Shown one piece after another: positions 11 to 64,000 of a stretch of 64,000 bases of DNA. The first letter of the stretch is position 1. Every line of letters starts with the position of its first letter. Below the pieces are notes generated by a model that saw nothing but the letters and a program-made list of their open reading frames with translations, was not told the origin of the DNA and did no database searches. Source of the stretch: PVC group bacterium (lineage in GTDB: Bacteria > Omnitrophota > Gorgyraeia > B26-G9); assembly GCA_024231215.1 (NCBI GenBank), contig JAAEQR010000206.1, positions 3,112-67,111 of the forward strand, written 5' to 3'. A program made the position numbers and the translations under genes.

Positions 11-376
11 ATGAAATATTATGAAAAGTTAATAAAAGATTATGAAGAGTGGGAAAAAAGCGAGCCAAAAGAGGAGGCATATTTTAAAGCCTTTTTTTGT
101 TTTAAAGAGAAGGGAATATTATGCGTTTGGGAGTGTGATGTTGAGGTGCTTTTAATAGAAAGTAAAATAATAAAATTACAAAAATGGCTAGAAAAACCTA
201 CTGGCGAGCTTAAAATACATGGCAAAACGAAAGGTAACTGGTTAAGCCTAGAAATAGACAAAGCTGACAAAAAATATGTTAGCGGTTATATAGAGGATGG
301 GTGGGAAGAGCACAGTATTGCGGCTAACCGTACAAATTTAATAAAATGGCTTAAAAGGATGATGAGTGAGGTATGA
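11..376 (+). CDS. hypothetical protein (121 aa) at upstream edge of glycan locus segment
   Basis: Intact ORF on the same strand as the neighbouring genes. Its stop overlaps the next start (ATGA at 373-376). No motif recognised. Confidence 0.45.
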   Translation: MKYYEKLIKDYEEWEKSEPKEEAYFKAFFCFKEKGILCVWECDVEVLLIESKIIKLQKWLEKPTGELKIHGKTKGNWLSLEIDKADKKYVSGYIEDGWEEHSIAANRTNLIKWLKRMMSEV

Positions 377-894
377 AAAAATCTGAATTGAAATTTTTAA
401 AACATTCTATGATGTATGTGCCTAATTATGGAACTGTTGTGGAAATTGGCTCTTGGATGGGTAGAAGTTCTGAGCAATTGGTACGAGGAATAGACAAATA
501 TTGTCCTGAAGCAGATCTACGTTGTATTGATCCGTTTGATGCCGAATATTTCAAAAAAACACCCGGGTTGCAAAAGAAGACTAAAAAGAATGGTGTCACA
601 GATATTTACGGGTGTTTTAAAAAGCGAATGCGGCCATATAGCTACTCGCATATGAGAATGACATCTGTAGAAGCTGCAAAAAAAATTGTTGATGACGTTC
701 ATTTTGTATTTATAGATGGTAACCATGATTATGAATATGTTAAACAAGACATAGAGCTTTGGGGTGACAAATTAGAAGAAAATTGTGTAATGTGTGGACA
801 TGACTATCACAAACCTGGGGTAAAAAAAGCTGTTGATGAATTGTGTGAAAATGTAAGATTTCCAGCGGAAAGCATGTGGATGGTGGTAAAATGA
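373..894 (+). CDS. class I SAM-dependent O-methyltransferase, TylF/MycF-like (sugar O-methyltransferase family)
   Basis: Motif I-like VVEIGSWMGRSS (SAM binding). FIDGNHDYEY and GHDY resemble the metal-binding D..D/H..Y segment of macrocin-O-methyltransferase-like enzymes. Called from memory of the family. Confidence 0.5.
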   Translation: MKKSELKFLKHSMMYVPNYGTVVEIGSWMGRSSEQLVRGIDKYCPEADLRCIDPFDAEYFKKTPGLQKKTKKNGVTDIYGCFKKRMRPYSYSHMRMTSVEAAKKIVDDVHFVFIDGNHDYEYVKQDIELWGDKLEENCVMCGHDYHKPGVKKAVDELCENVRFPAESMWMVVK

Positions 895-1556
895 AAAAAA
901 CGATTATATTAACAACGGTTAATGATAATTTGTATTACCAAAATAATATGAAAGTTTTTCTTCAATCATTAAAGGAAAATGCTGCTGGAGAATTTGTAAG
1001 AATATATGTGGTTAATAATGAAAAAATTGAATGTGAATTAAAAAAAATAAACAAAAACATAGAAATCAAACATATAAATGAAAAGTTGAATCGTTCTCAA
1101 ATAATTATCAGAAACGCTTTATATTGCCATGAAGCATTAAAAGAAGGATATGAAAAAGTAGCTTGGATAGATAGTGATGTTATAATAAGGGCAAAATTAG
1201 GAGATTTTTGGGATGTTAAGCCCTGTGAATTAAAAGTGATTTACAGAAGAAAGAAAAAAGATCATATTAAGTTTCAGAGTGGTGTTTTTGTTATTGGGAA
1301 CTCATCAGAAATGAGAAAATATATTTGGAAATGGGCAAAAACGATTATTGATCTTAAAAAGGCCAAGTGGTATGATGGTCAGGAGTTAATGTGTGAATTG
1401 GTTTTAAAGTATAAAATAAAACAAATAGATATGCCTATTAAATATAATGATTCTAAGTTTAATGCCGATTCTGTAATTTGGCACTGCAAAAGTAGTCATT
1501 TTTCATATGAAAAGTATCAAAAGGAATATAGAAAATATCTTGAGGTAGTAAAATGA
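891..1556 (+). CDS. putative GT-A fold glycosyltransferase (DXD-type)
   Basis: N-terminal hydrophobic beta strand (IILTTVND) and an AWIDSDVII DXD-like motif. Start overlaps the previous stop (ATGA). The start at M891 is preferred over the 876 ORF start. Confidence 0.35.
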   Translation: MKKTIILTTVNDNLYYQNNMKVFLQSLKENAAGEFVRIYVVNNEKIECELKKINKNIEIKHINEKLNRSQIIIRNALYCHEALKEGYEKVAWIDSDVIIRAKLGDFWDVKPCELKVIYRRKKKDHIKFQSGVFVIGNSSEMRKYIWKWAKTIIDLKKAKWYDGQELMCELVLKYKIKQIDMPIKYNDSKFNADSVIWHCKSSHFSYEKYQKEYRKYLEVVK

Positions 1557-2179
1557 ATATATTTATAGATTGCGGAGCTTATAACGGTGATTCCATAAGA
1601 AAATTCCGTGAAAAGATAGATTATGAAAACAATAAAGATTCTTGGAGGTTTTACGCCTTCGAACCAAATCCTTATGTTGACATAGAATTGGAAAATGTTA
1701 TCATTATCAAGAAAGCTGTTTGGACAGAAGATTGTAAAAAGAAATTGTATTTCAGCAAAAGAAGCAAAAAAGATAATGTGACTACTCTGATGGAAAATAA
1801 AACCACACCACATTTGAATTTTAAAGATTATGCTGAGGTGGAATGTGTTGATTTGTCTTCGTGGCTATATAGAAATATAGACCTGGATGACCATGTAGTA
1901 TTGAAAATGGACATTGAGGGAGCTGAATATAATGTTTTGGCATGGATGGGCTACACTGATGTGTTGGCGTTGATTAATGAATTGTATTGTGAGTTTCACG
2001 TTAAAAAGTTAAAGATGGACCCACAAATACATTTAGATCTTATAAGAAGTCTCAAGGGAGAAACCTTAACATTGCACGGTGATCTAATCCCTTCAGTGAA
2101 ACATCCGGAATTTGCAGACATTGAGGCATATGTCAAATTAGGCGAAAGGCTTCTTAGAAAGTATAGGAGAGAAGCATGA
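1553..2179 (+). CDS. FkbM-family methyltransferase
   Basis: N-terminus FIDCGAYNGDSIRKF...FAFEPNP matches the FkbM domain signature (DxGAxxG ... xFEPxP). ATGA overlap with the upstream gene. Confidence 0.55.
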   Translation: MNIFIDCGAYNGDSIRKFREKIDYENNKDSWRFYAFEPNPYVDIELENVIIIKKAVWTEDCKKKLYFSKRSKKDNVTTLMENKTTPHLNFKDYAEVECVDLSSWLYRNIDLDDHVVLKMDIEGAEYNVLAWMGYTDVLALINELYCEFHVKKLKMDPQIHLDLIRSLKGETLTLHGDLIPSVKHPEFADIEAYVKLGERLLRKYRREA

Positions 2180-2667
2180 AAGGTAGACAGGCTTACCTTT
2201 TCGCTGGAGATACAAGGGTTGTGAAAACATACAAAAGTAATTACGTGAAGAACAAGCTGTCATCCGTAGAAAAAGAGATTGAGGTGTGGGGTGCTTTTAA
2301 TAGCAGACATTGCCCGGTTATTTATGATGTGTTTAACAATGGCTATATAATGGAAAAATACAACTATGCTTTAGGTGGCACCAAAGACATAAATATGGAT
2401 AGGGTTAAACAAACGCCTCTTGATTTAATCAAAGAATTAAACAGCATAGAAAGAGACTTAAAAAAATACAAGATAATCCACAGAGACATTAACCCCGGAA
2501 ACTTATTGTATTCTTCGAAGGAAAAATGTCTAAAGTTAATAGATTTCTACTGGGCTGTTTTTGAGGGTGAGAAATTGATAGATATACCAAAACTAAATAA
2601 ATACTATGGAAATGATAAAGAGGCTTTTGAAAAGTTAAGGAAACAGGTAAAATGGGCAAAGTCATAA
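2176..2667 (+). CDS. small protein-kinase-fold protein (Kdo/LPS-kinase or choline-kinase-like, putative sugar/alcohol kinase)
   Basis: Catalytic-loop motif IIHRDINPGNLL (HRDxxxxN) followed by LIDFYWA (DFG-like). Candidate beta3 lysine in VVKTYK. Only 163 aa, so it may be truncated or minimal. Confidence 0.4.
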   Translation: MKGRQAYLFAGDTRVVKTYKSNYVKNKLSSVEKEIEVWGAFNSRHCPVIYDVFNNGYIMEKYNYALGGTKDINMDRVKQTPLDLIKELNSIERDLKKYKIIHRDINPGNLLYSSKEKCLKLIDFYWAVFEGEKLIDIPKLNKYYGNDKEAFEKLRKQVKWAKS

Positions 2668-3560
2668 AGATATTATCAGAAACAGAAACAGAGAACTATA
2701 ATATATTTCCGCAAAGGCTGACATTGGAAAAGTGTGGTACGTTTCATTTGCATTATAGAAGCATTCGGATGGAATTTAAAGAAGAGGAATTTGTGGAATT
2801 TTGCAAATTAATCAAGAAAGGGTATTCTAACTGGAAAAATGGTGATGGAGTACCCGGTGACAAAGGGCATGTGTTTTTGAGCACTAAGCTTGTACCACCT
2901 GATGTTGTTGATAAAAACAAGTTAAAGGTTGAGTTATGTAACAATCAATACAAAAAACATGAAAAGGATATTTTTGGCAAGGATTCAAATTTCTTTAAAG
3001 ACAAAAGCTATATCCATGTTCACCACAGAAATATAAGACAAGAGTATTCATTGGCTGAGTTTAGAAAAATAATGGAATGTTATTCACGGGTGATATTGCC
3101 GTCGTCGGGATTGATAGAAATGTTTAAAAGTATACGATGCTTGGAGTATGTAGTTATAAGAAACTATGAAAATCTTCCTGAAAGTGTAGAATTTGGCCCT
3201 CACAGTGACTTGGATTTGCTTTTTGCTGATAAAGAAAATGTAAAAGAGTTTATAAGAATAACGAGTGCAGTGGCTACAAAAAAAGAGGGCTATAGAGTTC
3301 AGCACAAAGTTATGGTTGGGGATAATTTTATTTTGTGTGATTTGAGGGTTGTTGGTGATGATTATTTTCCCTATGAACTTGCAAGTTCGATGATAAATAA
3401 TCGAGTATGGTATAGACATTTTACTGTCCCAAGCGAGCAAGATCACTACGCAGGCTTATTATATCATGCACTTATTCACAAAAAAAGAGTATCAGAGGAT
3501 TATATGAAAAGATTGGGGCTGAAACGGCCTAAAGATAAGTCTGTGGGGTTTCATGTATAA
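2652..3560 (+). CDS. hypothetical protein; possible minimal nucleotidyltransferase fold
   Basis: FGPHSDLDLLF resembles the Pol-beta superfamily hG[GS]...DhD motif. Later GDDYFP. Weak. Overlaps the end of the kinase-like ORF by 16 nt. Confidence 0.35.
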   Translation: MGKVIKILSETETENYNIFPQRLTLEKCGTFHLHYRSIRMEFKEEEFVEFCKLIKKGYSNWKNGDGVPGDKGHVFLSTKLVPPDVVDKNKLKVELCNNQYKKHEKDIFGKDSNFFKDKSYIHVHHRNIRQEYSLAEFRKIMECYSRVILPSSGLIEMFKSIRCLEYVVIRNYENLPESVEFGPHSDLDLLFADKENVKEFIRITSAVATKKEGYRVQHKVMVGDNFILCDLRVVGDDYFPYELASSMINNRVWYRHFTVPSEQDHYAGLLYHALIHKKRVSEDYMKRLGLKRPKDKSVGFHV

Positions 3561-4923
3561 AGTAGGATTAATGGCAATTAGAGACTTCCCGTTGTGGAAA
3601 CAATGTTTGAAATCATTAGCATCACATGTTGATGAGCTGTATTTAAGATTCGACATGAGGACTGGTGATAAAAATATATTGCCGGAAATAGAGAGCTGTT
3701 GTGATGGCAAGCTAAAAAAGCTGATTAAAAGTGACATTGTTTGGGATAACCACAACTGGAAAGAGGAGTTACTAAGGATTTTAGATAGTGTACACCCGCG
3801 TGTTGTTTTGTTTCCTGATGAAGATGAAGAGTTTGACAGCGGAATAGAAAAAGACATTAAAAACTTTATGGATAGTGATTGCAAAGAAATGATATTTGAT
3901 TTTAAGACTATTCTACCAAAGGGTATAACAAAAGCCCCTTCTGAGGATGGGCGTGTATATCCTTTTACAAAACATGTAAAAGTTTTTAAGTGGAGGCCTG
4001 GATTAACATACATACCATACAAAAACAGAGGTAGGCTATTCACCTATTTGGATAATCCACAATATGAGGCAAAGTCAAAAATAACCCATTACCATTTTTA
4101 TACAATGGAACTTTACAACAAATGGAAAGACAGGCTACGCAACCGGTTTAAGCTGGAAGAAAATAAAAGGTTGTGCAACGGTCGAAAAACAATAGTTTAT
4201 ATTCTTGGCTCTACACGTAGTGGTAGTACAATGCTGGATTTGATGATTAGTTCCAATTCTGAATGTACAAGCTTGGGCGAGCTTTGCTTGTTACATAAAA
4301 GAGATTGTGGTTTTTGTGGAGCTAAATGCAAATATTGGAAAGAATACAAAAAGAAATTTAACGGCAATTACTATGAGACTGCATTTAAAGTGTTTAAAAA
4401 AGACATCCTTGTGGATTCCTCTAAGAAGTGGAAGTGGTTAAAAGAAAGGGCTGATAGTGAAAGCTATGAGTACAAAGTCATACATCTGGTTCGGAATGGT
4501 TTAGACAGGCTGAAGTTTAGAAAAGGAAAAAATGGGCACATAAAGCCTTATGTGGTGCAAGCCTGGGTTAACACTCACAGGAAGTGCGAGAAGGTACGAA
4601 AAAGGTATGGTGGGATATTGGTTAAGTATGAGGAAATCAACCAAGAAACTAATAGGATATATGAATATCTTGGTGTGAAATGGCAGGATAGAAAAGTGAA
4701 ATTTTGGGAGCACGAACACCACGGATTGCTAGGAAGCAAGACAGCCTATTCTTTAGTAAAAAAATGGCATAACAAAGAAAACGGTTGGTACAATATTTAT
4801 GCAGATGAACACGGATTTAATCTTAATCCACGCACTGGCCATGAATTTCTTAGCAAAGAAGATATTAAGGTGTTTAACAAATACGGTGGGCGTGAATTAA
4901 ATAAGGAGTTGGGGTATGAGTAA
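3553..4923 (+). CDS. two-domain protein with C-terminal sulfotransferase domain
   Basis: C-terminal half has a 5'-PSB-like loop IVYILGSTRSGSTMLD and a downstream 3'-PB-like HLVRNGLDR, as in PAPS-dependent sulfotransferases. The N-terminal 200 aa is unassigned and may be a glycosyltransferase-like domain. Confidence 0.5.
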   Translation: MYKVGLMAIRDFPLWKQCLKSLASHVDELYLRFDMRTGDKNILPEIESCCDGKLKKLIKSDIVWDNHNWKEELLRILDSVHPRVVLFPDEDEEFDSGIEKDIKNFMDSDCKEMIFDFKTILPKGITKAPSEDGRVYPFTKHVKVFKWRPGLTYIPYKNRGRLFTYLDNPQYEAKSKITHYHFYTMELYNKWKDRLRNRFKLEENKRLCNGRKTIVYILGSTRSGSTMLDLMISSNSECTSLGELCLLHKRDCGFCGAKCKYWKEYKKKFNGNYYETAFKVFKKDILVDSSKKWKWLKERADSESYEYKVIHLVRNGLDRLKFRKGKNGHIKPYVVQAWVNTHRKCEKVRKRYGGILVKYEEINQETNRIYEYLGVKWQDRKVKFWEHEHHGLLGSKTAYSLVKKWHNKENGWYNIYADEHGFNLNPRTGHEFLSKEDIKVFNKYGGRELNKELGYE

Positions 4924-5788
4924 AAAAGTACTTGTTACCGGAATCGCAGGCTTCCTGGGATCCCACATAGCAGAAAGATTAGTGGAGTTGGGATATGAGG
5001 TTGTAGGTGTAGATAATTTGTCTACTGGAAAACCAAAAAATATAAAGAAAATTTTTGATAAAATAGAATTCCATTGGATGAGCCTTGAACATTTTGATAT
5101 AGAAAACAAAGATATAGATATAATATGCCACCAAGCAGCGCTATGTAATGTCCCACATTCCATGAAAGACCCAGATGGATATTTTGAAAACAATGTAGCA
5201 GCAACACATAGAATGCTAATGGAAGCGCGTAAATACAATATCAAAAAAATAGTAATAGCTTCTTCAAGTGCTGCCGAAGAATGTATATCACCTTACGGAA
5301 TGTCTAAGAAGGTTACAGAAGATTATTCCAATCATTATAGAAACCTATATGATATGGATATAACAAACCTAAGATACTTTAATGTGTATGGCCCGAGGCA
5401 AAGCATGGACTCGCAACATTCTATGGTGATACCAATTTTTATCAATAAATTACTTAAAGGTGAAAGCCCAACTATTTATGGAGACGGAGAGCAAAGTCGG
5501 GATTTTATATATGTAGATGACGTGGTTGATGCTAATATTGCAGCAATTGAAGGCGATCATCAAGGCACTTGGGATGTGGGATCAGGGGAATCAACAAAAA
5601 TAATAGATTTATTTAACTGGATTAAAGCTTTAATTGGTGCTGAAGTTGATCCAATATTCACAAAAAAAAGGCCGGGAGATCCATTTGAAACGGAAGCGAT
5701 TGTGAGTGGTAGGTATTGGCAACCAAAAACAGACATGAGTGATGGACTTATAAAAACTATAGAATGGTGGAAGAATGAAAACGTGTAA
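4916..5788 (+). CDS. NAD-dependent sugar epimerase/dehydratase (short-chain dehydrogenase/reductase, SDR, family)
   Basis: Rossmann motif VLVTGIAGFLGSH (GxxGxxG), catalytic YGMSK (YxxxK), and length and architecture typical of UDP-sugar 4-epimerases. Confidence 0.8.
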   Translation: MSKKVLVTGIAGFLGSHIAERLVELGYEVVGVDNLSTGKPKNIKKIFDKIEFHWMSLEHFDIENKDIDIICHQAALCNVPHSMKDPDGYFENNVAATHRMLMEARKYNIKKIVIASSSAAEECISPYGMSKKVTEDYSNHYRNLYDMDITNLRYFNVYGPRQSMDSQHSMVIPIFINKLLKGESPTIYGDGEQSRDFIYVDDVVDANIAAIEGDHQGTWDVGSGESTKIIDLFNWIKALIGAEVDPIFTKKRPGDPFETEAIVSGRYWQPKTDMSDGLIKTIEWWKNENV

Positions 5789-5960
5789 AAATTGCACTTA
5801 TTGGGTTTCTAATAAAGACGAAAAAATGTTTTATCCAGAAACAGGTGATGGGCGATGCCATAGAAACGCTCCAATAGTAAGTAATGATGATCGTCACGAA
5901 TGGCCACCAACAATGGAAATGGATTGGTGTGGAGAATATAAAAAAAAGTTGGAAGAATGA
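5775..5960 (+). CDS. small Cys-rich protein (61 aa)
   Basis: CKNC...CHRNAP...WCGEY. Overlaps the epimerase stop. Member of a set of small Cys proteins scattered through the glycan locus. Confidence 0.4.
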   Translation: MKTCKNCTYWVSNKDEKMFYPETGDGRCHRNAPIVSNDDRHEWPPTMEMDWCGEYKKKLEE

Positions 5961-6104: not shown

Positions 6105-7088
6105 ATGAGTAAAAATTGGCTCTTTTTAAGGGGTTATTTTGATCGCAACAACAAAAAATCACTAAAAAATGATTCTGACATGTGGGTACAATTGTTTTCC
6201 AAGTTAGTCCCGGATGGCATCACAATGCCAGATAGTGCAAACGGAGCAATATGCTATGTTGATTACAAGCAGACTATGCCGCAAATGTATGAGTATTTGC
6301 CAATAATTGGAAAAGAAAAAGCAAAGATGTTAGCAAAAGAATTTGACTACGTTTTCGCCAGAGGTGGCCACAAAGAATACGAGCCAATACTGAAGAAATG
6401 TAAAAACGCATACAAAATTTATTATGGTGCAGGAGCTCGCATAGTACCCGAAAAAGATTTAGGCTACAGTCTCATATTATGCGACTCTGAGGAACAGAAA
6501 AAGAAATGCAAGAAGAAATATCCACATATAAAAAGTTCTCTTTGGATAAAACCCGCAGCAAGACATTTCAAACCTGTTGAATGTGAAAAAGAATATGATG
6601 TATGTTACGTAGCTGATTGCCATAGTAAATTTCAGGAAAAGATTAAGCGCGTAAATTGGGTGTATAAGACAGCACCGAAAGACCTTAAAATACTTCATTT
6701 GGGGAAAAGTTCTATAAAACCGCCTAAGAATGTTACTGTTAAACGAGTGCAGAGGATTGATATGCCTAAGTGGTATTCTAAGTGTAAGGTGGGAATTGTT
6801 CCTTATAAGGGGTATGACAGTTGCCCTAGAGTAATTCCGGAGATGTTGGCTTGTGGGTTACCTTTGGTTGTTATGGATAGTGTTAATTTTTGGATAAAAA
6901 AGTATTTTTTCACATCCCCTTTCAAAGGTCGCAAAATAAACAAAAATGGGTTTTGGGAAATTGTTGGTGTTTATTTAAATCCTTACAAGCACAAAATAGA
7001 TTTTGTTGGCGAATTATCTGATTACTACCAAGAAAACCTCTCTCTCAAACCAGCAGCAGAACATTTAAGGAGTTTAATTAATGGATGA
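6105..7088 (+). CDS. putative GT-B fold glycosyltransferase (GT1/GT4-like)
   Basis: C-terminal VIPEMLACGLPLVVMDS resembles the conserved GT-B E..a.G.P motif. Size 327 aa. Confidence 0.45.
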   Translation: MSKNWLFLRGYFDRNNKKSLKNDSDMWVQLFSKLVPDGITMPDSANGAICYVDYKQTMPQMYEYLPIIGKEKAKMLAKEFDYVFARGGHKEYEPILKKCKNAYKIYYGAGARIVPEKDLGYSLILCDSEEQKKKCKKKYPHIKSSLWIKPAARHFKPVECEKEYDVCYVADCHSKFQEKIKRVNWVYKTAPKDLKILHLGKSSIKPPKNVTVKRVQRIDMPKWYSKCKVGIVPYKGYDSCPRVIPEMLACGLPLVVMDSVNFWIKKYFFTSPFKGRKINKNGFWEIVGVYLNPYKHKIDFVGELSDYYQENLSLKPAAEHLRSLING

Positions 7089-8310
7089 CAGAGCATTAGG
7101 ACAAATAATAACATTCTTTGAAGTGGTTAATGGCGCAAGTATGACAAGGACAAACAGGCCGCCTATGGGTGTATGGTTCTTAGAAAAAGAATCACTTATG
7201 GAATTTGTTATTAATAATAGAGTAATAACACCTATTAAAATAGGAATAACAGGCGCTCTTGATCCCAAAGCATTTGAAAAAATGTGTGAAAATTTCAGAG
7301 TGGGGTTTGAAGAAGGCAGAAAATGTAATTATATATTAAAAATAGAATCACAGACCGTATATGTTAATTTATACCAAGACAAAGGGTTTGGGAAGTTAAT
7401 AATAGCACCAAAAAGAATAATAGAAACAATAAACACAAGAAGAGACATGTCTATGTCAAGGTGGGGTACTTGGAAATATAAAATGGTTTATAATAAATGG
7501 TTTGAACTTTCTATACCATATAAATTTGGAACTGTTTTAGACATGCAGATACCTAACTGGATTACAAAGGTTAAGCATATTGAAAAAGAAAACTTAAACA
7601 AAAATGATAGTTTTTTTATTGGCAAGCGCGCTGAAAATGCTTTGGAATTAATGGCATTATTAAGAAGTTGTGCTACGGTGGCAGGGATTGAAAAGTATCT
7701 ATTTCTTGGATTTGGAACGTTGTTAGGTGTGGCTCGCGAAGGAGGTTTTATCCCCAATGATAGAGATTTAGACCATTGTGTGGCTGGTGAATATATAACA
7801 CCACACCAAGAAGAAAAGTTTCTTCAGGAAATAGCAAGGTCAAGAACTATTGACGGGAAAACTTATTCGAAAGGGCTGTATGAAGGAAGATGCAGAAAGC
7901 CAGTACGAAGGAGAGATGAGGGACAGCGGTTTTTGTGGACATCCTGTGGACACAAAAAAGTACACGGTCAAAAAGGGGTAAAATCATGCATATGGAAATT
8001 CTTTAAGCATGAAAAATATGATTGGCACTCAAAAGGCAGGCGCTGGATTAATACAAGAAAGTTTGATTATCAATTATATGATTATAATGGAGGTGAAGAT
8101 GCAATTGCAAAGGGAATACCAACAGGCTTGCTGGACCAGTTTAAAGAAATCAAATTTCATGGAGTCACAATAAACATACCCAAAAGAGTTGGTGCGTGTT
8201 TGGATGAATGGTATCCGGGTTGGGCACGACCAAAAAAAGGAGCAAGTGCAAAAAAGCATGTAATGGTTATTCCTGATTGGAAGAAGCCTAATGGGTGGAA
8301 GGTTTATTAG
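7081..8310 (+). CDS. LicD-family phosphotransferase-domain protein (CDP-alcohol phospho-group transferase)
   Basis: FLGFGTLLGVAREGGFIPNDRDLDHC matches the LicD/fukutin-like core (GTLLGAVRH.GFIPWDDDIDI). N-terminal about 180 aa unassigned. Confidence 0.5.
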   Translation: MDDRALGQIITFFEVVNGASMTRTNRPPMGVWFLEKESLMEFVINNRVITPIKIGITGALDPKAFEKMCENFRVGFEEGRKCNYILKIESQTVYVNLYQDKGFGKLIIAPKRIIETINTRRDMSMSRWGTWKYKMVYNKWFELSIPYKFGTVLDMQIPNWITKVKHIEKENLNKNDSFFIGKRAENALELMALLRSCATVAGIEKYLFLGFGTLLGVAREGGFIPNDRDLDHCVAGEYITPHQEEKFLQEIARSRTIDGKTYSKGLYEGRCRKPVRRRDEGQRFLWTSCGHKKVHGQKGVKSCIWKFFKHEKYDWHSKGRRWINTRKFDYQLYDYNGGEDAIAKGIPTGLLDQFKEIKFHGVTINIPKRVGACLDEWYPGWARPKKGASAKKHVMVIPDWKKPNGWKVY

Positions 8311-51652: not shown

Positions 51653-51991
51653 TTAAAATCGTGTATTTTCAAGAATGGCTCCACTGAGGTTAGCTCCCCT
51701 GAGGTTAGCTCCACTGAGGTTAGCTCCACTGAGATCGGCTCCACTGAGGTTAGCTCCCCTGAGATCGGCTCTGACGAAATTAACTCTACTGAGATCGGCT
51801 CTACTGAGATCGGTATTAAAAAGCCGCGCGTCACTGAGATTGGCTCCACTGAGATCGACATTACTGAGGTTAGTTCCTGCAAGGTCAGCATCACTAAGGT
51901 TAGTTTTGTGTTGTACCACAAAATCAGCATATGATATGTTTTCATCAGTTTCCGCAATCACATTGTCTGTATTCCAAATTTGATGTTCCAT
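51653..51991 (-). CDS. pentapeptide-repeat protein (16 x A[D/N]LSG)
   Basis: Read directly: [25 protein letters not shown] ... [10 protein letters not shown]. First gene of the - strand block. Preceded by the conserved leader. Confidence 0.6.
51681..51905. repeat. 15-bp tandem repeat array (CTGAGGTTAGCTCCA-type) encoding the pentapeptide repeats
   Basis: Periodic nucleotide repeat visible on both strands. It generates multiple overlapping ghost ORFs in the track. Confidence 0.7.
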
Positions 51992-52662: not shown

Positions 52663-53244
52663 TTGATTAATGTGGCTACAAGAAAGAAAATATCCTCAAG
52701 AAAACTAACCCAAATGGAGCTTGCGTTCTGCTATGAATATGTAGCAAACAAGTTCAACGGGAAGCAGGCCGCAATAGCCGCTGGATACAGTGTAAAGACA
52801 GCAGAAGTACAAGCATCGGACTTATTAAGTAGACCTAAGCTGAAACTCAAGGTAAAGCAGCTCACAGATAAGTATCTAAAAAAGGTAGAATATACCGGCG
52901 AATCCATTCTAAACGAATTAGCAATATTAGGGTTTTCTGATATGAATGATATGTTAAACGAGGATGAAAATGGTGATTTAACATTGAAATCATTAAAAGA
53001 TATGGGATATAACACACGGTGCATCCAACAATTGGAAATAACTAATACAACGCGATCATTTAAGGACTCCACAGAGACCCAAACAGACCAAAAAATCAAA
53101 TTTAAGCTGTATGATAAGAGAGCAACATTAGAATTAATAGGAAAAAACCTACAGCTATTCACGGATAGAATACACCACACAGGTGAAGTGAACAACACAG
53201 TACAAGTATACATTCCTGATAATGGCCGAAATAACAAGGATTAA
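52663..53244 (+). CDS. terminase small subunit
   Basis: Immediately upstream of and overlapping the large terminase. N-terminal HTH-like segment KLTQMELAFCYEYVANKFNGKQAAIAAGYS, typical of small terminase subunits. Confidence 0.5.
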   Translation: MINVATRKKISSRKLTQMELAFCYEYVANKFNGKQAAIAAGYSVKTAEVQASDLLSRPKLKLKVKQLTDKYLKKVEYTGESILNELAILGFSDMNDMLNEDENGDLTLKSLKDMGYNTRCIQQLEITNTTRSFKDSTETQTDQKIKFKLYDKRATLELIGKNLQLFTDRIHHTGEVNNTVQVYIPDNGRNNKD

Positions 53245-56501: not shown

Positions 56502-56795
56502 GTGAAAAGTAGTACCATAACAATAGTAGAAACCGCTGATTATCCGGAAAGCTATGTGGAATTTGTCGCGTGGGTTACTAAGTGGGTTCGGAAAATACCA
56601 GAGGAGTATTTAAATAAGGCAGAAATATCATTTAACCAAACAGCCTGGGATGGTGTAGCAGTTGAAATATATTACAAAAACATGGAGATTGAAGAAGCAA
56701 ATAGGCTAATAAAGAAGTTTGAAGTAGAGGAAAAAGAGATAGCTGAATATCTTAGGCTACGTGAAAAATACAAGTACCATAGGAATTTAGAGTGA
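56502..56795 (+). CDS. hypothetical protein (97 aa)
   Basis: SD GAGAGGTGAAGAAGTG, with GTG or ATG start uncertain. Overlaps the next gene. Confidence 0.35.
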   Translation: MKSSTITIVETADYPESYVEFVAWVTKWVRKIPEEYLNKAEISFNQTAWDGVAVEIYYKNMEIEEANRLIKKFEVEEKEIAEYLRLREKYKYHRNLE

Positions 56796-58256: not shown

Positions 58257-58639
58257 TACAACAAAAACCAAAAACAGCCAAGGGGTACTACTACTATCAT
58301 AGATTGATGTGGAGTAGGCTGGTTAAGGAGATGGAAAAGGGGAAAGTTCTTGACACTGGCTTAAAATACAGTGTATGGAATAGTTTGTTTGATTTTGATG
58401 GCGAGGAGTGCAATCACTGCTTTGCTTGCATGTGGAAAGATGATGATGTGACGGTTCGGGAGTATGTGTACTATATCGCCGAAGATGGCGATTGTGAAGA
58501 TGAGTGTTTGTTGCATTATACGCCAGAAGATGGAAAGTGCTTAGGTGGATTATACGAAGCAGCAACCGGAGTAAGTCAATACAGAATAGAAGCGGCTAAG
58601 GAAATACGTGATTTACCTATGAAGGATAAGTGGAAATGA
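58253..58639 (+). CDS. Cys-rich hypothetical protein (128 aa)
   Basis: CNHCFAC...CEDEC. ATGA overlap. Confidence 0.4.
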   Translation: MIQQKPKTAKGYYYYHRLMWSRLVKEMEKGKVLDTGLKYSVWNSLFDFDGEECNHCFACMWKDDDVTVREYVYYIAEDGDCEDECLLHYTPEDGKCLGGLYEAATGVSQYRIEAAKEIRDLPMKDKWK

Positions 58640-59367
58640 AATTCCAATTAATAATAAGAGGACGCAACTGCACAAAGTACGTTAAAAAATGTCTTGATTC
58701 GGTGTTAGCACAGACACATAAGGATTGGAAAGCAACTGTATGCCTCGATGCTCCTACGGATAATAGTTATGAAAAAGCTATAAAATATACGAAGGATAAA
58801 AGAATATCTGTATATCGCAACAAAAAACGGCTTGGTGTAGCACACAACATGGTAGAGACTATAATGTTAGCAGCACCTGACGACACCGATATATTAGCTA
58901 TAGTAGACGCGGACGATGAAATACCAAAAAATGCTTTACATATGGTAAATAAAGAATATGAAAAGAACCCTCTATTGAGATTGACGTATGGCTCTTTCTG
59001 GCGGTTGGACAAGAAGAGACGTACGAAGACGAGTAGAAGATATAAGAGCAATGTTAGTGTTAGAAAACAGGATTGGCATGGGAGCCATTTAAAGACGTTT
59101 CGCTATGATCTATACAAACGTATTCCACACAGGTATTTTAAACATGACAACAACAATAAGTGGTTTATGGCGGCGTCGGATTTGGCTCTCATGTTTCCTC
59201 TGTTTGATTTGTTAGGTGTTGATCGGTATAAAACACACACGAAATACGTAAAAGAAATAACGTATAAATGGAATAGAACATCGGATAAAACGCGAGGGCA
59301 TGAACAATACAGGAACAAGCAATTGATTAAGAAAAAGAAACCATTGAAGAGGTTGGAGCATGTGTAG
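58630..59367 (+). CDS. family-2-like glycosyltransferase (GT-A)
   Basis: N-terminal LIIRGRN...CLDSVLAQTHKDWKATVCLDAPTDNS ... AHNM resembles the GT2 core (S..Q.....e.i.vDD.S.D ... N.G). Confidence 0.5.
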   Translation: MEMKFQLIIRGRNCTKYVKKCLDSVLAQTHKDWKATVCLDAPTDNSYEKAIKYTKDKRISVYRNKKRLGVAHNMVETIMLAAPDDTDILAIVDADDEIPKNALHMVNKEYEKNPLLRLTYGSFWRLDKKRRTKTSRRYKSNVSVRKQDWHGSHLKTFRYDLYKRIPHRYFKHDNNNKWFMAASDLALMFPLFDLLGVDRYKTHTKYVKEITYKWNRTSDKTRGHEQYRNKQLIKKKKPLKRLEHV

Positions 59368-59662
59368 CAGTTGCGATCAAAAAGAAAAGTGTGACAAGAA
59401 AAATAAGACAGAACTACCGAACAAATACATTAAGGATGTTGTGGGTGTGTTTGCCGATTGGCTGAAAAAGGAAGCGCCCAATATGATTAAGAAAGGTGAG
59501 CTGAATAGGAGATGTTATTCTATCAATAGAAGCTTTAAAACAAAAAGGCAGGCCATGTTTTACAATCCACTGAAAAGAGATGCAGAAAAATTTAAAGGCG
59601 TGTCAGTGCATATGCTAGTGGAATTTGATTTTGAAAAGATTCCAAAGATGGAGGATGAGTGA
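59360..59662 (+). CDS. small Cys-containing protein (100 aa)
   Basis: MCSSCDQKEKCDKK N-terminus. Overlaps neighbours. Confidence 0.4.
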   Translation: MCSSCDQKEKCDKKNKTELPNKYIKDVVGVFADWLKKEAPNMIKKGELNRRCYSINRSFKTKRQAMFYNPLKRDAEKFKGVSVHMLVEFDFEKIPKMEDE

Positions 59663-60045
59663 GTACAATATTATTTTCAGGGAGATTTGACAGGCCGCAT
59701 ATAGGGCATATGATTACTATTGGCAGGTTGGGACAGCAATATGATAAGGTAATTATTGTGGTGTTGGATTACCCAGAGCAGAAGTATCCAATAGATGAGC
59801 GGGTAAATACTTTGCGTAATGCTCTGTACCTAATGAGAATGAGAGGATCATATCAAATTGTGGTCTCAAAACACCATTTTGGTGAAATAGAGACAAAACA
59901 ATTAAAAGAAGAAATCCCCTGGTTTGATGTGTATGGCAGTGGCAATAGAGAGGTTTTGGAGAATATGAAACAAAATATATATCCAACACAAAGAGTAGAA
60001 CACATACCCCGATACCCCGGATATTCAGCGAGTGAGGAAGGGTGA
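59659..60045 (+). CDS. cytidylyltransferase-family nucleotidyltransferase (TagD/LicC-like, HxGH motif)
   Basis: ILFSGRFDRPHIGHM matches the (T/H)xGH signature of the cytidylyltransferase superfamily (GtFDllHaGH). 128 aa. Confidence 0.55.
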   Translation: MSTILFSGRFDRPHIGHMITIGRLGQQYDKVIIVVLDYPEQKYPIDERVNTLRNALYLMRMRGSYQIVVSKHHFGEIETKQLKEEIPWFDVYGSGNREVLENMKQNIYPTQRVEHIPRYPGYSASEEG

Positions 60046-60821
60046 AAACACTATTGGTATTATCGGTAGGCGTAGAATTTGGGTGGCTGCTATGCACTTT
60101 TATTCCAGCTATACGTTACAAATCACGTGGATATAACAGGACAGTAATTGTATGCGACCCAGAACATAGATACTTATACCAGGATTTTGCAACGGATTTT
60201 GTGAATTATAATAAGAAGATAGAGGGTGTGGGCTACTATGGCTGGTCTCCGAAAAAGAAACTAAAAATGCCAAGAGGAATATCAAGAAAATATCCAGGGG
60301 CTAAAATAATAACACCAACAAAAAAAATATGCACTGATGCACCAATGGTGTATTATAAGTATGGAAAATATAATGACAAATTGCATTCAGATATAATTAT
60401 TCATGCACGGTCTGAGGCAAAATTCAACAGAGAGAAACGAAATTGGCCTATACACCATTATGTAAAACTAATTAAAAAGCTGAGGGCACACAGGGATTTA
60501 TCTGTGTGTTCGGTGGGGACGAAGGAAGGCGCGCACCATATACCGGGCACATTGGATTTGAGAGGAATCCCATTAGAGGCGTTGTGTAATAGAATGGCGA
60601 GTAGTTCAGTAGTTGTAGGTTGTAGCTCGGGGCCTCTTCATTTGGCGAGTTTGTGCGGATGCCCCCATGTGGTATGGACTGACAAGAAATATCAGGAAGC
60701 GATTAAGGGTACAAATAAGGATAGGTATAAAAAATTGTGGAACCCATTCGGTACACCGGTGAAAGTTATAGATGTGGGGTGGCAACCGAGCATTGAGGTT
60801 GTTTATGAGGTATTAAGATGA
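60042..60821 (+). CDS. putative GT-B glycosyltransferase (GT9 heptosyltransferase-like)
   Basis: ASSSVVVGCSSGPLHLASLCGCPHVVW resembles the GT9 motif (gnDSGpmHlAaA.g.P.v.l). Confidence 0.4.
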   Translation: MKTLLVLSVGVEFGWLLCTFIPAIRYKSRGYNRTVIVCDPEHRYLYQDFATDFVNYNKKIEGVGYYGWSPKKKLKMPRGISRKYPGAKIITPTKKICTDAPMVYYKYGKYNDKLHSDIIIHARSEAKFNREKRNWPIHHYVKLIKKLRAHRDLSVCSVGTKEGAHHIPGTLDLRGIPLEALCNRMASSSVVVGCSSGPLHLASLCGCPHVVWTDKKYQEAIKGTNKDRYKKLWNPFGTPVKVIDVGWQPSIEVVYEVLR

Positions 60822-62654: not shown

Positions 62655-63272
62655 GTGATTAAACTAAGCGGACATTTAGTAAGGAAGCCAAGAGCGCAGA
62701 TAGCAGCACCTGTAGATGGGTGCCACAGAAACGGATCTGACGGTTTTTTGAAGGGGGCTCATGCTATGTACCTTAATGGTAAGCTTTTCATGCCACATGG
62801 GATGGTGTCTATATATTATTACACAAGTGGTGACAAAGGATTAAAAATATACGTATCTGCAAAACATGGATGGCATAGCAAAAAGAAGTATGTAAGAGCT
62901 GTTAGAAATCGAATGAAGAAATATCATGAGAAAGGTATTTGTCCTAAGCCATATAAAATAATATCGGTAGAGGTAGACTTTAATTATAAAAACAAAGCTG
63001 TCTATCACAAAAAGGTATGGGGTTTAGAGGTAGATCATTGTTTTTGGCCGGAAGATTTTGAGGATTACGCAAATGGCTACCCATTAACTTGGTGTGAGGG
63101 AAAGTATCCCGGCTACTCTCCAGAGGGATTCAAGAAGTTCAAGAAAAAATTAGATAAAATACTGTCACACGAGGATAAGAAAACACTAAGAAAGCTTGGT
63201 GACTCATACAAATGTGGAGATGTAATGTACTGTACTAAAAAACTAAAATGGGAATTTGTGGATTTGGGCTAA
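62655..63272 (+). CDS. hypothetical protein (205 aa)
   Basis: Intact ORF with SD-like GGAGGATATTTTGTG (GTG start possible). Confidence 0.4.
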   Translation: MIKLSGHLVRKPRAQIAAPVDGCHRNGSDGFLKGAHAMYLNGKLFMPHGMVSIYYYTSGDKGLKIYVSAKHGWHSKKKYVRAVRNRMKKYHEKGICPKPYKIISVEVDFNYKNKAVYHKKVWGLEVDHCFWPEDFEDYANGYPLTWCEGKYPGYSPEGFKKFKKKLDKILSHEDKKTLRKLGDSYKCGDVMYCTKKLKWEFVDLG

Positions 63273-63435: not shown

Positions 63436-64000
63436 ATGAGATACTCTAAAAAACATAAGAAGCTATTTGTTCACATACCACGTTGTGCAGGCAAATCAAT
63501 AGTTGTAATGATGAAATCTCATTACAAAGATGTAAGGCTTGTAAATAAGTCGTGGACTCATTCCAGACTTAAAGACGTGCGGAAGAATATCGATCTCTCT
63601 AAATACGAGAAAATAGCAGTGGTAAGAAATCCCTGGGAACGAATGGTAAGCTTATATTGTTTTCTTAGGCAGAGAAAAGCTTGGTTTGACACCAGAAAAG
63701 GGAAGAAAGTGTTAAATAAGAATATGCCTGAATTCACTGACTGGCTTATAAATTACGGAAAGAAATCACACAATATAAAAACATCTGACACCCCACAATT
63801 TGATTGGGTTTCATTGAATGGAAAGGTAGCGGTTGACCATCTCATAAGATATGAAAAGTTAGAAAAGGGTGTTAAAAAAGCATTTGGATTCTGTGATTTG
63901 GCGGAGTCACACACAACTTATCATTCACACTGGAAAACATACTATAATGAAAAAAGTGATAAATACATAAGAAGAATATTTAAGAAAGATATTGAGGTGT
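63436..64000 (+). CDS. sulfotransferase-family protein (partial, runs off window end)
   Basis: N-terminus LFVHIPRCAGKSI matches the Sulfotransfer_2/3 start (fvHIPKtgGTS, PAPS 5'-phosphate loop). Confidence 0.45.
   Translation, partial: MRYSKKHKKLFVHIPRCAGKSIVVMMKSHYKDVRLVNKSWTHSRLKDVRKNIDLSKYEKIAVVRNPWERMVSLYCFLRQRKAWFDTRKGKKVLNKNMPEFTDWLINYGKKSHNIKTSDTPQFDWVSLNGKVAVDHLIRYEKLEKGVKKAFGFCDLAESHTTYHSHWKTYYNEKSDKYIRRIFKKDIEV

What the first reader, a model, noticed from the sequence alone, without database searches (positions are those of the whole stretch)
3553..4923. Sulfotransferase domains in a phage (two copies: 3553-4923 C-terminal domain and 63436-end)
PAPS-dependent sulfotransferase signatures are very rare in phage genomes. 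The motifs are GSTRSGST plus RNGLD in one copy and FVHIPRCAGKS in the other. Two distinct sulfotransferases imply sulfation at two positions or on two substrates. The phage would also rely on host PAPS supply.
Basis: partly seen in the sequence, partly recalled or inferred. Interest (0 to 1): 0.65.

Follow-up and report, generated by a model that had tools for sequence, protein, structure and literature searches.

The report
Two sulfotransferases in a phage glycan island
A roughly 72-kb tailed phage, filed in GenBank as a bacterial genome fragment, carries two genuine sulfate-transferring enzymes inside a large sugar-building gene island, so it probably makes a sulfated glycan; similar enzymes already occur in many phages and giant viruses.

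Summary
ORF 3553-4923 (456 aa) ends in a Sulfotransfer_3-type domain. A profile of its family matches the CurM sulfotransferase at 1.2e-10 and TPST1/2 at about 7e-4. ORF 63436-end holds 188 of 193 aa of a compact Sulfotransfer_2-type enzyme (Pfam 35.6 bits, cutoff 22). Both keep the two PAPS-binding motifs, and neither resembles a non-sulfotransferase fold.

New detail: the first ORF is a fusion. Its N-terminal about 205 aa is a GT-A-like glycosyltransferase domain with no Pfam family. In two relatives (L172, L175) the two halves are adjacent genes overlapping by 4 nt.

Both genes lie in one island of soluble glycan enzymes: six glycosyltransferase-like proteins, two methyltransferases, an epimerase, and a kinase / cytidylyltransferase / LicD set. 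The island sits between terminase and portal. The host contig is labelled 'PVC group bacterium'.

The rarity claim is overstated. At least 482 IMG/VR stretches encode relatives of the second enzyme, usually in glycan neighbourhoods. Isolated phages (phiRSL1, P-SSM7, S-T4) already carry annotated sulfotransferases.

No APS kinase is visible, so dependence on host PAPS is plausible. The acceptor is unresolved: virion protein, host envelope glycan or something else. This is a new member of a known kind, of moderate interest.

The parts
3553..4923 (+). 456-aa fusion protein: N-terminal GT-A-like domain plus C-terminal Sulfotransfer_3-type sulfotransferase (NCBI MCP4651130.1, 'hypothetical protein', annotated from Met7)
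3553..4176 (+). N-terminal domain (aa 1 to about 208). GT-A-like nucleotide-sugar-binding fold with a conserved LFPDEDE (DxD-like) motif at nt 3814-3831. No Pfam family. Elsewhere it is a stand-alone protein of about 200 aa
4183..4923 (+). Sulfotransfer_3-type domain. 5'-phosphosulfate-binding loop GSTRSGST at nt 4207-4230, putative base Glu in GELCLL at nt 4276-4293, 3'-phosphate-binding HLVRNGLD at nt 4492-4506. A Cys cluster CGFCGAKC lies at nt 4306-4329
63436..64000 (+). Compact Sulfotransfer_2-type sulfotransferase, 188 of 193 aa in the window (NCBI MCP4651210.1 'sulfotransferase family protein'). 5'-PSB FVHIPRCAGKS at nt 63466-63498 and 3'-PB VVRNPWERMVS at nt 63619-63651
62655..63272 (+). 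205-aa protein of unknown function. Conserved partner immediately upstream of the Sulfotransfer_2 gene in L001 and L006 (in L003 an HNH/AP2 gene lies between them), and upstream of the GT-A-like gene in L007 and L008
61249..62265 (+). GT-B (GT4-like) glycosyltransferase, probable. The Pfam hit is weak here, but the L001 orthologue hits Glyco_trans_1_4 (weak)
60042..60821 (+). GT9 (heptosyltransferase)-like protein, below the Pfam cutoff
59659..60045 (+). Cytidylyltransferase-like protein (CTP_transf_like, 26.9 bits against cutoff 21)
58630..59367 (+). GT2 glycosyltransferase (Glycos_transf_2, 2.2e-17)
373..894 (+). Methyltransf_24 methyltransferase (1.3e-14)
876..1556 (+). GT8-like glycosyltransferase (weak, 0.0081; orthologues in L003 and L008)
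1553..2179 (+). FkbM-type methyltransferase (Methyltransf_21, 4.8e-12)
2176..2667 (+). Small protein-kinase / choline-kinase-like protein (Pkinase 1.4e-6, Choline_kinase 3e-5, both below cutoff)
2652..3560 (+). Nucleotidyltransferase-like protein (DUF4269, weak; GPHSDLDLLF motif). Forms a conserved pair with the kinase-like gene in L007 and L172
4916..5788 (+). NAD-dependent sugar-nucleotide epimerase/dehydratase (Epimerase, 2.4e-53)
6105..7088 (+). GT-B (GT4-type) glycosyltransferase (Glyco_trans_1_4, 7.8e-6, 26.6 bits against cutoff 27, i.e. just below)
7081..8310 (+). LicD-family phospho-alcohol transferase (LicD, 32.8 bits against cutoff 22.6)

Best explanation
Both ORFs are functional PAPS-dependent O-sulfotransferases from two different families. 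They tailor an oligosaccharide that the phage builds itself in the host cytoplasm. Shown: each enzyme has the two loops that hold the donor 3'-phosphoadenosine-5'-phosphosulfate, namely the 5'-phosphosulfate-binding loop and the 3'-phosphate-binding strand-helix. Each also has a conserved candidate catalytic base: Glu in GELCLL for the Sulfotransfer_3 domain, and a near-invariant His42 for the Sulfotransfer_2 enzyme. Shown: the genes lie in one island of at least 15 soluble enzymes between the terminase and portal genes, on the same strand as the structural genes and mostly with overlapping stop and start codons. Inferred: an epimerase supplies a sugar nucleotide, and six glycosyltransferase-like proteins assemble the glycan. 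Two methyltransferases, a kinase / cytidylyltransferase / LicD set (phospho-alcohol decoration) and the two sulfotransferases then decorate it. The first sulfotransferase is physically fused to a GT-A-like glycosyltransferase, so it most likely sulfates the sugar that its own N-terminal domain adds, or its neighbour. The second enzyme sulfates another position. PAPS comes from the host. The final carrier of the glycan is not resolved. My estimate is a virion or other phage protein about 0.4, a host envelope glycoconjugate such as LPS/LOS core built at the cytoplasmic face about 0.35, and anything else about 0.25.
For: Sulfotransferase identity: Pfam Sulfotransfer_3; family profile against CurM ST 1.2e-10, OLS ST 1.8e-9 and TPST about 7e-4, with the PRSGST loop, PEL/GEL Glu and VRxG/P strand aligned. 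Invariant R12, G14, S15, T16, E33, K81 and R104 in alignment A3. Foldseek top eight PDB hits are TPST1/2. Pfam Sulfotransfer_2 scores 35.6 bits. Invariant HIP..G.S and VRNP..R..S in 15 homologues. The AF2 model has pLDDT 90; almost all of its 50 listed PDB hits are sulfotransferases, and viral sulfotransferases match at E 1e-8, TM 0.68. Carbohydrate context: island annotation. The N-terminal domain has a GT-A fold with SpsA, TarS, GalNAc-T, SunS and AvpGT hits and a conserved PDEDE motif. The same domain is fused elsewhere to GT1/GT4, GT2, TOD1/MUCI70 and methyltransferase domains. The GT-A-like and ST genes are adjacent with a 4-nt overlap in L172 and L175, and fused in the window and L089. 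Island synteny is conserved in L001, L003 and L006, and both STs are present in L003. In 45 other IMG/VR loci, the neighbours of Sulfotransfer_2-type genes are further sulfotransferases, glycosyltransferases, methyltransferases, sugar-nucleotide enzymes and APS kinases. Soluble enzymes: no 19-residue window above KD 1.6, apart from a single 19-residue window in the GT2 (maximum 1.63) and a Rossmann-type N-terminus in the GT9-like protein. Host PAPS: no Walker-A protein other than TerL.
Against: No biochemistry exists for any member of either subfamily. The single-sequence Pfam hit for the first domain is marginal and short. Its AF2 model is only moderately confident (pLDDT 73), and the TM-scores to TPST are low (0.25-0.41). 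In the window's clade of the second enzyme, the usual 5'-PSB Lys is Arg (HIPR). Arg is normal in Sulfotransfer_3 enzymes but is not the Sulfotransfer_2 consensus. The closest solved relatives of the first domain sulfate an acyl-carrier-bound hydroxyl (CurM) or protein tyrosine (TPST), not sugars. The carbohydrate acceptor therefore rests on gene context only. Several glycosyltransferase calls are below Pfam cutoffs (GT8-like, GT9-like, 61249-62265, and 6105-7088 narrowly). The 7.9 kb of the contig outside the window was not seen.
Confidence: 0.68

Rival explanations
1. The Sulfotransfer_3 domain is a protein (tyrosine) sulfotransferase, like TPST or bacterial RaxST. It would sulfate a phage or host protein rather than a sugar.
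For: Foldseek's eight best PDB matches for the model are TPST1/2 (E 5e-6 to 4.5e-5). The family profile matches TPST1/2 at about 7e-4 with the PRSGTT loop aligned.
Against: CurM and OLS sulfotransferases match about six orders of magnitude better than TPST. TM-scores to TPST are low. The domain is fused or translationally coupled to a GT-A-like glycosyltransferase and embedded among glycan enzymes. No candidate acidic Tyr-rich substrate gene was identified.
Confidence: 0.1
2. The island hypermodifies phage DNA by glycosylating and then sulfating a modified base, to evade restriction.
For: One paper states, citing Iyer et al. 2013, that glycosyltransferase- and sulfotransferase-based nucleotide modification systems have been reported in phages (PMC10829341). 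The original was not available. The island proteins are very basic, with net charge +15 to +36.
Against: No thymidylate-synthase-like hydroxymethylase, TET/JBP, aGPT-Pplase, P-loop hmU kinase or DNA polymerase was found in the ORFs scanned. TerL is the only Walker-A protein. Six glycosyltransferases, LicD and methyltransferases are far more than any known DNA glycosylation needs. The basic charge may simply reflect Lys-rich, AT-rich coding.
Confidence: 0.07
3. One or both genes are inactive relics or non-catalytic PAP(S)-binding modules, for example a scaffold or regulator, in a rapidly shuffling island.
For: The island is mosaic between relatives. The second enzyme is unusually short at 193 aa and has Arg in place of the consensus Lys. 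P0002 has lost the Cys-cluster segment of the first domain.
Against: Motif residues are invariant across homologues down to 25-30% identity. The ORFs are intact and conserved in several independent metagenomes at 44-71% identity.
Confidence: 0.08

Closest known systems
CurM / OLS 'activating' sulfotransferases (PDB 4GBM, 4GOX; Pfam Sulfotransfer_3)
   Same: Best sequence match of the C-terminal domain of ORF 3553-4923 (1.2e-10 and 1.8e-9). The PRSGST 5'-PSB loop, the Glu in PEL/GEL and the VRH/VRN 3'-PB strand are shared.
   Different: CurM sulfates a beta-hydroxyacyl-ACP inside a polyketide synthase. Here the domain is fused to a GT-A-like domain in a glycan island and carries a family-specific C-terminal region (W..HEHHG..GS...R.GHEFL) and a Cys cluster. 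Pairwise identity to CurM was not computed; even the nearest named bacterial homologue (Leptolyngbya, P0007) is only 26% identical.
Tyrosylprotein sulfotransferases TPST1/2 (PDB 3AP1, 5WRJ)
   Same: Best fold matches and a significant profile match (about 7e-4); same Pfam family.
   Different: The sequence match is weaker than to CurM. There is no evidence for a peptide substrate. TPSTs are Golgi membrane proteins, whereas this protein is soluble.
Carbohydrate sulfotransferases of Pfam Sulfotransfer_2 (HS2ST, HS6ST, CHST family); PHROG 3347 'Galactose-3-O-sulfotransferase'
   Same: ORF 63436-end passes the Pfam cutoff and hits PHROG 3347. It has HIPxxxGxS and RNPxxRxxS motifs. His42 aligns with the second His of the HGH segment of HS2ST (weak, E 0.06); identifying that residue as the catalytic His is from my own knowledge.
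   Different: It is only 193 aa against 250-350 aa, has Arg instead of Lys in the 5'-PSB loop in this clade, is soluble, and is at most 34% identical to any bacterial or IMG/VR relative.
Sulfotransferases already annotated in phages and giant viruses (Ralstonia phage phiRSL1, Prochlorococcus phage P-SSM7, Synechococcus phages S-T4, ACG-2014f and S-SRM01, OM43-phage MVGs, Pithovirus, Hokovirus, Megaviridae)
   Same: Same fold (BFVD E 1e-8 to 1e-3, TM up to 0.70). Same kind of gene in viral genomes. [quoted passage not shown]
   Different: Sequence identity is 12-21%. Here there are two enzymes of different families, one fused to a glycosyltransferase, in an island that fills at least 21% of the window.
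Virus-encoded glycan machineries: mycobacteriophage virion glycosylation, chlorovirus and mimivirus capsid/fibril glycosylation (own knowledge; 'virion glycosylation' papers listed)
   Same: Soluble virus-encoded glycosyltransferases and methyltransferases encoded beside structural genes; no membrane translocation machinery.
   Different: No sulfated virion glycan has been described for a phage, to my knowledge. No acceptor was identified here.
Rhizobial NodH / LpsS and LPS-core assembly enzymes (GT9, GT8, GT4, core kinases, LicD) (own knowledge)
   Same: The family set in the island (GT9-like, GT8-like, GT4, kinase-like, LicD, sulfotransferase) resembles LPS/LOS-core assembly and its sulfation at the cytoplasmic face of the inner membrane.
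   Different: The matches to GT9 and GT8 are below cutoffs, no equivalog model is met, and no Kdo or heptose pathway genes were seen.

Membership tests
PAPS-dependent sulfotransferase, Sulfotransfer_3 (PF13469): ORF 3553-4923 C-terminal domain | Profile match at or above the curated threshold | tested here: met
   27.4 bits against cutoff 27 on the single sequence, aa 215-247 only. The family profile A3 matches CurM ST at 1.2e-10 over positions 7-184. Homologues P0003, P0005 and P0007 also carry PF13469 and PF00685.
PAPS-dependent sulfotransferase, Sulfotransfer_3 (PF13469): ORF 3553-4923 C-terminal domain | 5'-phosphosulfate-binding loop (xRSG[ST]T) | tested here: met
   GSTRSGST at aa 219-226. 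R12, G14, S15 and T16 are invariant in A3 and aligned to CurM PRSGST and TPST PRSGTT.
PAPS-dependent sulfotransferase, Sulfotransfer_3 (PF13469): ORF 3553-4923 C-terminal domain | 3'-phosphate-binding strand/helix (hhhVRxx) | tested here: met
   IHLVRNGLD. I100, H101 and R104 are invariant and aligned to CurM YLVRHP and TPST LMVRDGR.
PAPS-dependent sulfotransferase, Sulfotransfer_3 (PF13469): ORF 3553-4923 C-terminal domain | Catalytic base (Glu after the first helix, as in CurM and TPST) | tested here: inconclusive
   The invariant E33 (GEL) aligns exactly with the CurM PEL Glu, but with the first rather than the second Glu of TPST GEE. Its role as base is from my own knowledge of CurM and TPST, not tested.
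PAPS-dependent sulfotransferase, Sulfotransfer_3 (PF13469): ORF 3553-4923 C-terminal domain | Sulfotransferase alpha/beta fold | tested here: met
   The eight best Foldseek PDB hits are TPST1/2 (E 5e-6 to 4.5e-5). However, model pLDDT is 73 and TM-scores are 0.25-0.41.
PAPS-dependent sulfotransferase, Sulfotransfer_3 (PF13469): ORF 3553-4923 C-terminal domain | PAPS binding and sulfuryl transfer | not testable with these tools
   Needs purified protein.
Sulfotransfer_2 (PF03567): ORF 63436-end | Profile match above the curated threshold | tested here: met
   35.6 bits against cutoff 22, aa 3-169 of profile positions 5-200. 22 of the 23 homologues carry PF03567.
Sulfotransfer_2 (PF03567): ORF 63436-end | 5'-PSB motif HIPK[TS]GG[TS]S | tested here: met
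   FVHIPRCAGKS. H13, I14, P15, G19 and S21 are invariant in 15 sequences. Position 16 is Arg in the window's clade and Lys in more distant members.
Sulfotransfer_2 (PF03567): ORF 63436-end | 3'-PB motif RNPxxRxxS | tested here: met
   VVRNPWERMVS. V63, R64, N65, P66, R69 and S72 are invariant and aligned to HS2ST VIRDPIERLVS.
Sulfotransfer_2 (PF03567): ORF 63436-end | Sulfotransferase fold | tested here: met
   Model pLDDT 90. Almost all of the 50 listed PDB hits are sulfotransferases, although E is at best 0.019. BFVD viral sulfotransferases match at E 1e-8, TM 0.68-0.70.
GT-A glycosyltransferase: ORF 3553-4923 N-terminal domain | Rossmann-like nucleotide-sugar-binding fold | tested here: met
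   Foldseek hits SpsA 1h7q (rmsd 3.3 over 138 columns), TarS, GalNAc-T4, SunS/ThuS and AvpGT. IspD and CMP-sugar synthetases, which share the fold, also hit. pLDDT is 79-94 for aa 1-110 and low after aa 120.
GT-A glycosyltransferase: ORF 3553-4923 N-terminal domain | DxD metal/nucleotide-binding motif after beta-4 | tested here: met
   LFPDEDE is conserved in all 15 N-domain sequences of A2.
GT-A glycosyltransferase: ORF 3553-4923 N-terminal domain | Membership of a curated GT family (Pfam/CAZy) | tested here: not met
   No Pfam, NCBIfam or PHROG hit, and no precomputed Pfam on 13 homologues. I therefore call it 'GT-A-like', not a member of a named GT family.
DNA base hypermodification system (considered) | A base-hydroxymethylating or hydroxylating enzyme, or an hmU kinase/pyrophosphorylase, encoded by the phage | tested here: not met
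   None among the ORFs scanned in Pfam. TerL is the only Walker-A protein. The 7.9 kb of the contig outside the window was not examined.
Wzx/Wzy- or ABC-type surface polysaccharide pathway (considered) | Integral-membrane priming transferase, flippase or polymerase | tested here: not met
   No transmembrane-like segment in the 28 island-region ORFs tested. This does not exclude action on a host lipid-linked acceptor at the cytoplasmic face.

The most novel reading that the evidence does not exclude
The phage uses a self-encoded, entirely soluble pathway to place a sulfated, methylated and phospho-alcohol-substituted glycan on its own virion proteins. This would be the first sulfated glycoconjugate made by a bacteriophage. 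The GT-A-sulfotransferase fusion would act as a coupled 'add a sugar, then sulfate it' module. A polyanionic coat of this kind could mimic marine sulfated polysaccharides, alter adsorption, or shield the particle.
Probability: 0.25. Interest if true: 0.7.

Novelty: new member of a known kind. Interest (0 to 1): 0.42.

Why it matters
Virus-encoded sulfotransferases are repeatedly listed as 'auxiliary metabolic genes', but none from a phage has a known substrate. This locus is an unusually informative case. It has two sulfotransferases of different families. One is fused or translationally coupled to a glycosyltransferase-like domain. Both sit in a compact, conserved island of soluble enzymes next to the virion genes. 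That narrows the search for the acceptor and provides a defined set of genes to reconstitute. If the product is a sulfated glycan on virions or on the host envelope, it would extend phage glycobiology to sulfation and link phage infection to host PAPS and sulfur budgets. It also shows that a 72-kb phage genome is filed in GenBank under a bacterial MAG.

Tried and rejected
1. Single-sequence phmmer of ORF 3553-4923 against PDB sequences found nothing; only the family profile worked.
2. tblastn against INPHARED phages gave no hit for ORF 3553-4923 or the portal, and one 26% hit for the second enzyme.
3. IMG/VR scans with the single fusion protein, the portal and the A3 profile found nothing. The pattern method is insensitive for this narrow subfamily.
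4. An exact look-up of P0001 to fetch the full 71,941-bp contig failed. The source MAG is not among the GTDB representatives. The 7.9 kb outside the window and the circularity of the contig therefore remain unchecked.
6. I assumed the 693-aa L007 protein downstream of the island was a portal. It is a TerL homologue, so island position relative to the packaging genes differs between lineages.
7. The 205-aa partner protein gave no credible Pfam, NCBIfam or PDB match. My impression of a kinase-like motif is unsupported.
8. I searched for an APS kinase in the window with a Walker-A regex and with tblastn of the one neighbour ORF (a 737-aa L139 protein, not an evident APS kinase) that matched my P-loop pattern. 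Neither found one. My regex for picking APS kinases out of the neighbour set was poor, so the negative rests mainly on the Walker-A scan and the Pfam scans.
9. Iyer et al. 2013 (PMC3763556), cited for sulfotransferases in phage DNA modification, is not held.
Full report
**What is there**

The window is part of a tailed-phage genome. It encodes a small terminase (52663-53244; Terminase_2, 1e-23). It also encodes a large terminase (53222-55180; phrog_979, 1.7e-140) and a portal (8880-10934; phrog_156). A long run of divergent structural genes follows on the + strand. A recombination/early region lies on the - strand, with a YqaJ exonuclease and an ERF recombinase. No tRNA genes were found.

The two proteins of the finding are identical to NCBI entries from a single 71,941-bp contig labelled 'MAG: PVC group bacterium'. 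These are MCP4651130.1 ('hypothetical protein') and MCP4651210.1 ('sulfotransferase family protein'). The window covers 89% of it.

**The observation**

Both ORFs and all quoted motifs are present at the stated places.

ORF 3553-4923 (456 aa) gives only a marginal Pfam Sulfotransfer_3 hit on its own: 27.4 bits against a cutoff of 27, over aa 215-247. It has only seven homologues among 5.8 billion proteins. One is a full-length homologue at 71% identity, four are stand-alone enzymes of about 250 aa at 48-58%, and one is a cyanobacterial 'sulfotransferase' at 26%.

A profile of the C-terminal domain family (A3) matches solved sulfotransferases convincingly. CurM ST scores 1.2e-10, OLS ST 1.8e-9 and TPST1/2 about 7e-4. 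The 5'-phosphosulfate loop (GSTRSGST against PRSGST/PRSGTT), a Glu (GEL against PEL) and the 3'-phosphate strand (HLVRNG against YLVRHP/LMVRDG) are all aligned. These residues are invariant in the family. The AlphaFold model (pLDDT 73) has TPST1/2 as its eight best PDB matches.

ORF 63436-end holds 188 of the 193 residues of a compact enzyme. It passes the Sulfotransfer_2 threshold (35.6 against 22 bits) and hits PHROG 3347 'Galactose-3-O-sulfotransferase'. Both PAPS motifs, HIPxxxGxS and VRNPxxRxxS, are invariant across 15 homologues. The model is confident (pLDDT 90). Almost all of its 50 listed PDB matches are sulfotransferases, though the E-values are weak. It matches annotated viral sulfotransferases at E 1e-8 and TM about 0.7.

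It is not met.

First, ORF 3553-4923 is a two-domain fusion. Residues 1 to about 205 belong to a family with no Pfam model. The family has 147 representatives at E <= 1e-3 and usually occurs as a stand-alone protein of about 200 aa. Some members are fused to GT1/GT4, GT2, TOD1/MUCI70 or methyltransferase domains.

Its confidently modelled N-terminal half matches GT-A glycosyltransferases, including SpsA, TarS, GalNAc-T4, SunS/ThuS and AvpGT. It carries a strictly conserved LFPDEDE motif of DxD type.

In contigs L172 and L175 the GT-A-like gene and the sulfotransferase gene are adjacent, in different frames, with a 4-nt overlap. In the window and in the independent contig L089 they are fused. 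This adjacency-to-fusion pattern argues that the two activities act on the same substrate.

Second, both sulfotransferases belong to one island of glycan enzymes that occupies both ends of the window.

- At the 3' end: GT2 (58630), a cytidylyltransferase-like protein (59659), a GT9-like protein (60042), a GT4-like protein (61249), a conserved 205-aa unknown (62655) and the Sulfotransfer_2 enzyme.
- At the 5' end: a Methyltransf_24 (373), a GT8-like protein (876), an FkbM methyltransferase (1553), a small kinase-like protein (2176) and a nucleotidyltransferase-like protein (2652). The fusion (3553), an epimerase/dehydratase (4916), a GT4 (6105) and LicD (7081) follow, directly upstream of the portal.

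Related contigs show that these two ends are parts of one unit. L006 and L001 repeat the order TerL, 288-aa protein, GT2, GT9-like, GT4, 205-aa protein, Sulfotransfer_2. L003 runs from the GT4 / 205-aa / Sulfotransfer_2 genes through orthologues of 876 and 373 to a stand-alone orthologue of the Sulfotransfer_3 domain (57% identity). It then continues to orthologues of 6105 and 59659.

The source contig is therefore probably a permuted complete genome, with the island running from the terminase, across the contig ends, to the portal. I could not fetch the missing 7.9 kb to prove this. The visible enzyme genes cover 13.7 kb, or 21% of the window.

Third, none of the 28 island-region ORFs tested has a transmembrane-like segment. 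No flippase, polymerase or priming transferase is present. The pathway is soluble.

**How it most likely works**

Shown: there are two enzymes with complete PAPS-binding motifs, a conserved glycan-enzyme context, and coupling of one sulfotransferase to a GT-A-like domain.

Inferred: the glycosyltransferases assemble an oligosaccharide in the cytoplasm from host and epimerase-derived sugar nucleotides. Methyltransferases, a kinase / cytidylyltransferase / LicD route (phosphocholine-type decoration; own knowledge of the Lic pathway) and the two sulfotransferases then tailor it. The two sulfotransferases would act at two different positions.

PAPS would come from the host. TerL is the only Walker-A protein in the window, and no APS kinase or ATP sulfurylase appeared in the Pfam scans. 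By contrast, 4 of 131 ORFs neighbouring Sulfotransfer_2-type genes in other viral contigs are APS kinases. This supports both the PAPS chemistry and the view that donor supply can be limiting for such phages.

The carrier of the glycan is unresolved. Three points favour a virion or other phage protein. The island lies inside the packaging/structural gene block on the same strand. No membrane machinery is present. Mycobacteriophages, chloroviruses and mimiviruses offer analogies (own knowledge).

On the other side, the family set (GT9-like, GT8-like, GT4, kinase-like, LicD, sulfotransferase) resembles LPS/LOS-core assembly. That process also uses soluble enzymes at the cytoplasmic face of the membrane, so remodelling of the host envelope is nearly as likely.

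**Rivals**

- Tyrosine sulfation is suggested by the TPST fold matches. CurM-type enzymes match far better, and the gene context is glycan.
- DNA hypermodification is mentioned second-hand in the literature (PMC10829341; the original was not held). No base-modifying enzyme was found.
- Inactive relics are unlikely, given invariant motifs over deep divergence.

**Comparison with what is known, and novelty**

The rarity premise is only partly right. In 50,697 deposited phage records, tblastn finds no relative of the first ORF and one relative of the second. The narrow Sulfotransfer_3 subfamily is rare everywhere: four close relatives in JGI metagenomes and none found in IMG/VR.

Their neighbours are typically further sulfotransferases, glycosyltransferases, methyltransferases and sugar-nucleotide enzymes.

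BFVD contains annotated sulfotransferases from Ralstonia phage phiRSL1, Prochlorococcus phage P-SSM7, Synechococcus phages S-T4 and ACG-2014f, many uncultured Caudovirales, and pitho-, mimi- and marseilleviruses. Published surveys already list sulfotransferases as viral auxiliary genes and note that their function in phages is unclear (PMC10580990; PMC8290583).

The locus is therefore a new member of a known kind. Its distinctive features are the GT-A-like-sulfotransferase fusion, the pairing of two sulfotransferase families, and the size and density of the island in a genome of about 72 kb.

**Verdict**

- Interest is moderate (0.42). The value lies in offering a tractable system for finding the first substrate of a phage sulfotransferase, not in the mere presence of the domains.

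Noticed in passing
window 62655-63272; L001 9378-10004; L003 832-1455; L006 6248-6853; L007 9450-10043; L008 582-1178 and 9396-10004: A 200-aa protein family of unknown function sits upstream of the Sulfotransfer_2 gene: directly in the window, L001 and L006, with an HNH/AP2 gene between them in L003. In L007 and L008 it sits directly upstream of the GT-A-like gene. It has 20 invariant residues, including K64, H128 and D203. It has no Pfam, NCBIfam or PDB match. It could be an acceptor-recognition or accessory subunit of the tailoring enzymes.
   Followed up: partly
window 2176-2667, 59659-60045 and 7081-8310: A choline-kinase/protein-kinase-like protein, a cytidylyltransferase-like protein and a LicD-family transferase together look like a complete phospho-alcohol (phosphocholine-type) decoration route encoded by the phage. 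The first two are weak or near-threshold hits.
   Followed up: partly
window 2176-3560; L007 6963-8328; L172 7-1267: The kinase-like gene and a Pol-beta-type nucleotidyltransferase-like gene (GPHSDLDLLF) form a conserved overlapping pair, upstream of the GT-A-like gene in three contigs (directly in the window and L172; separated by other genes in L007).
   Followed up: partly
window 56792-57658: A 288-aa, extremely basic protein (net charge +36) with no family match is conserved just downstream of TerL in L006 (55% identity), L007 and, split in two, L001.
   Followed up: no
window 30357-35279: A 1,640-aa protein at the end of the structural block carries an ADP-ribosyltransferase domain of the 'polyvalent protein' type (ART-PolyVal, 4.9e-9). 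It is a likely ejected or internal virion effector.
   Followed up: no
window 51653-51991 (- strand): A 112-aa protein made almost entirely of pentapeptide repeats (Pfam 2.1e-37) lies at the start of the leftward early region. It is a possible DNA-mimic or anti-defence protein.
   Followed up: no
window 62265-62636, 5775-5960, 61097-61297, 57975-58256, 58253-58639: Several small Cys-rich ORFs, for example 123 aa with 12 Cys in CxxC pairs, are interspersed among the island enzymes. They look like zinc ribbons of unknown role.
   Followed up: no
window 4306-4329 (aa 252-259 of ORF 3553-4923): A Cys cluster (C-x8-C-x7-CGFCGAKC) is inserted after the putative catalytic Glu of the Sulfotransfer_3 domain. 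It is conserved in the stand-alone homologues but deleted in the 71%-identical fusion P0002 and absent from the cyanobacterial homologue.
   Followed up: partly
whole window: The source contig (71,941 bp, NCBI 'MAG: PVC group bacterium') is a phage genome with no bacterial flanks in the 64 kb seen. The bin label may or may not indicate the host.
   Followed up: partly
L003 1455-2105: An HNH/AP2 homing-endonuclease-like gene is inserted between the 205-aa gene and the Sulfotransfer_2 gene in one relative. This illustrates how mobile the island is.
   Followed up: no
L007 and L008 (73-kb and 71-kb JGI contigs): Other phage lineages of similar size carry glycan islands built from partly the same gene families. 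Their content differs (radical SAM/SPASM enzymes, DegT aminotransferase), and so does their position relative to TerL.
   Followed up: partly
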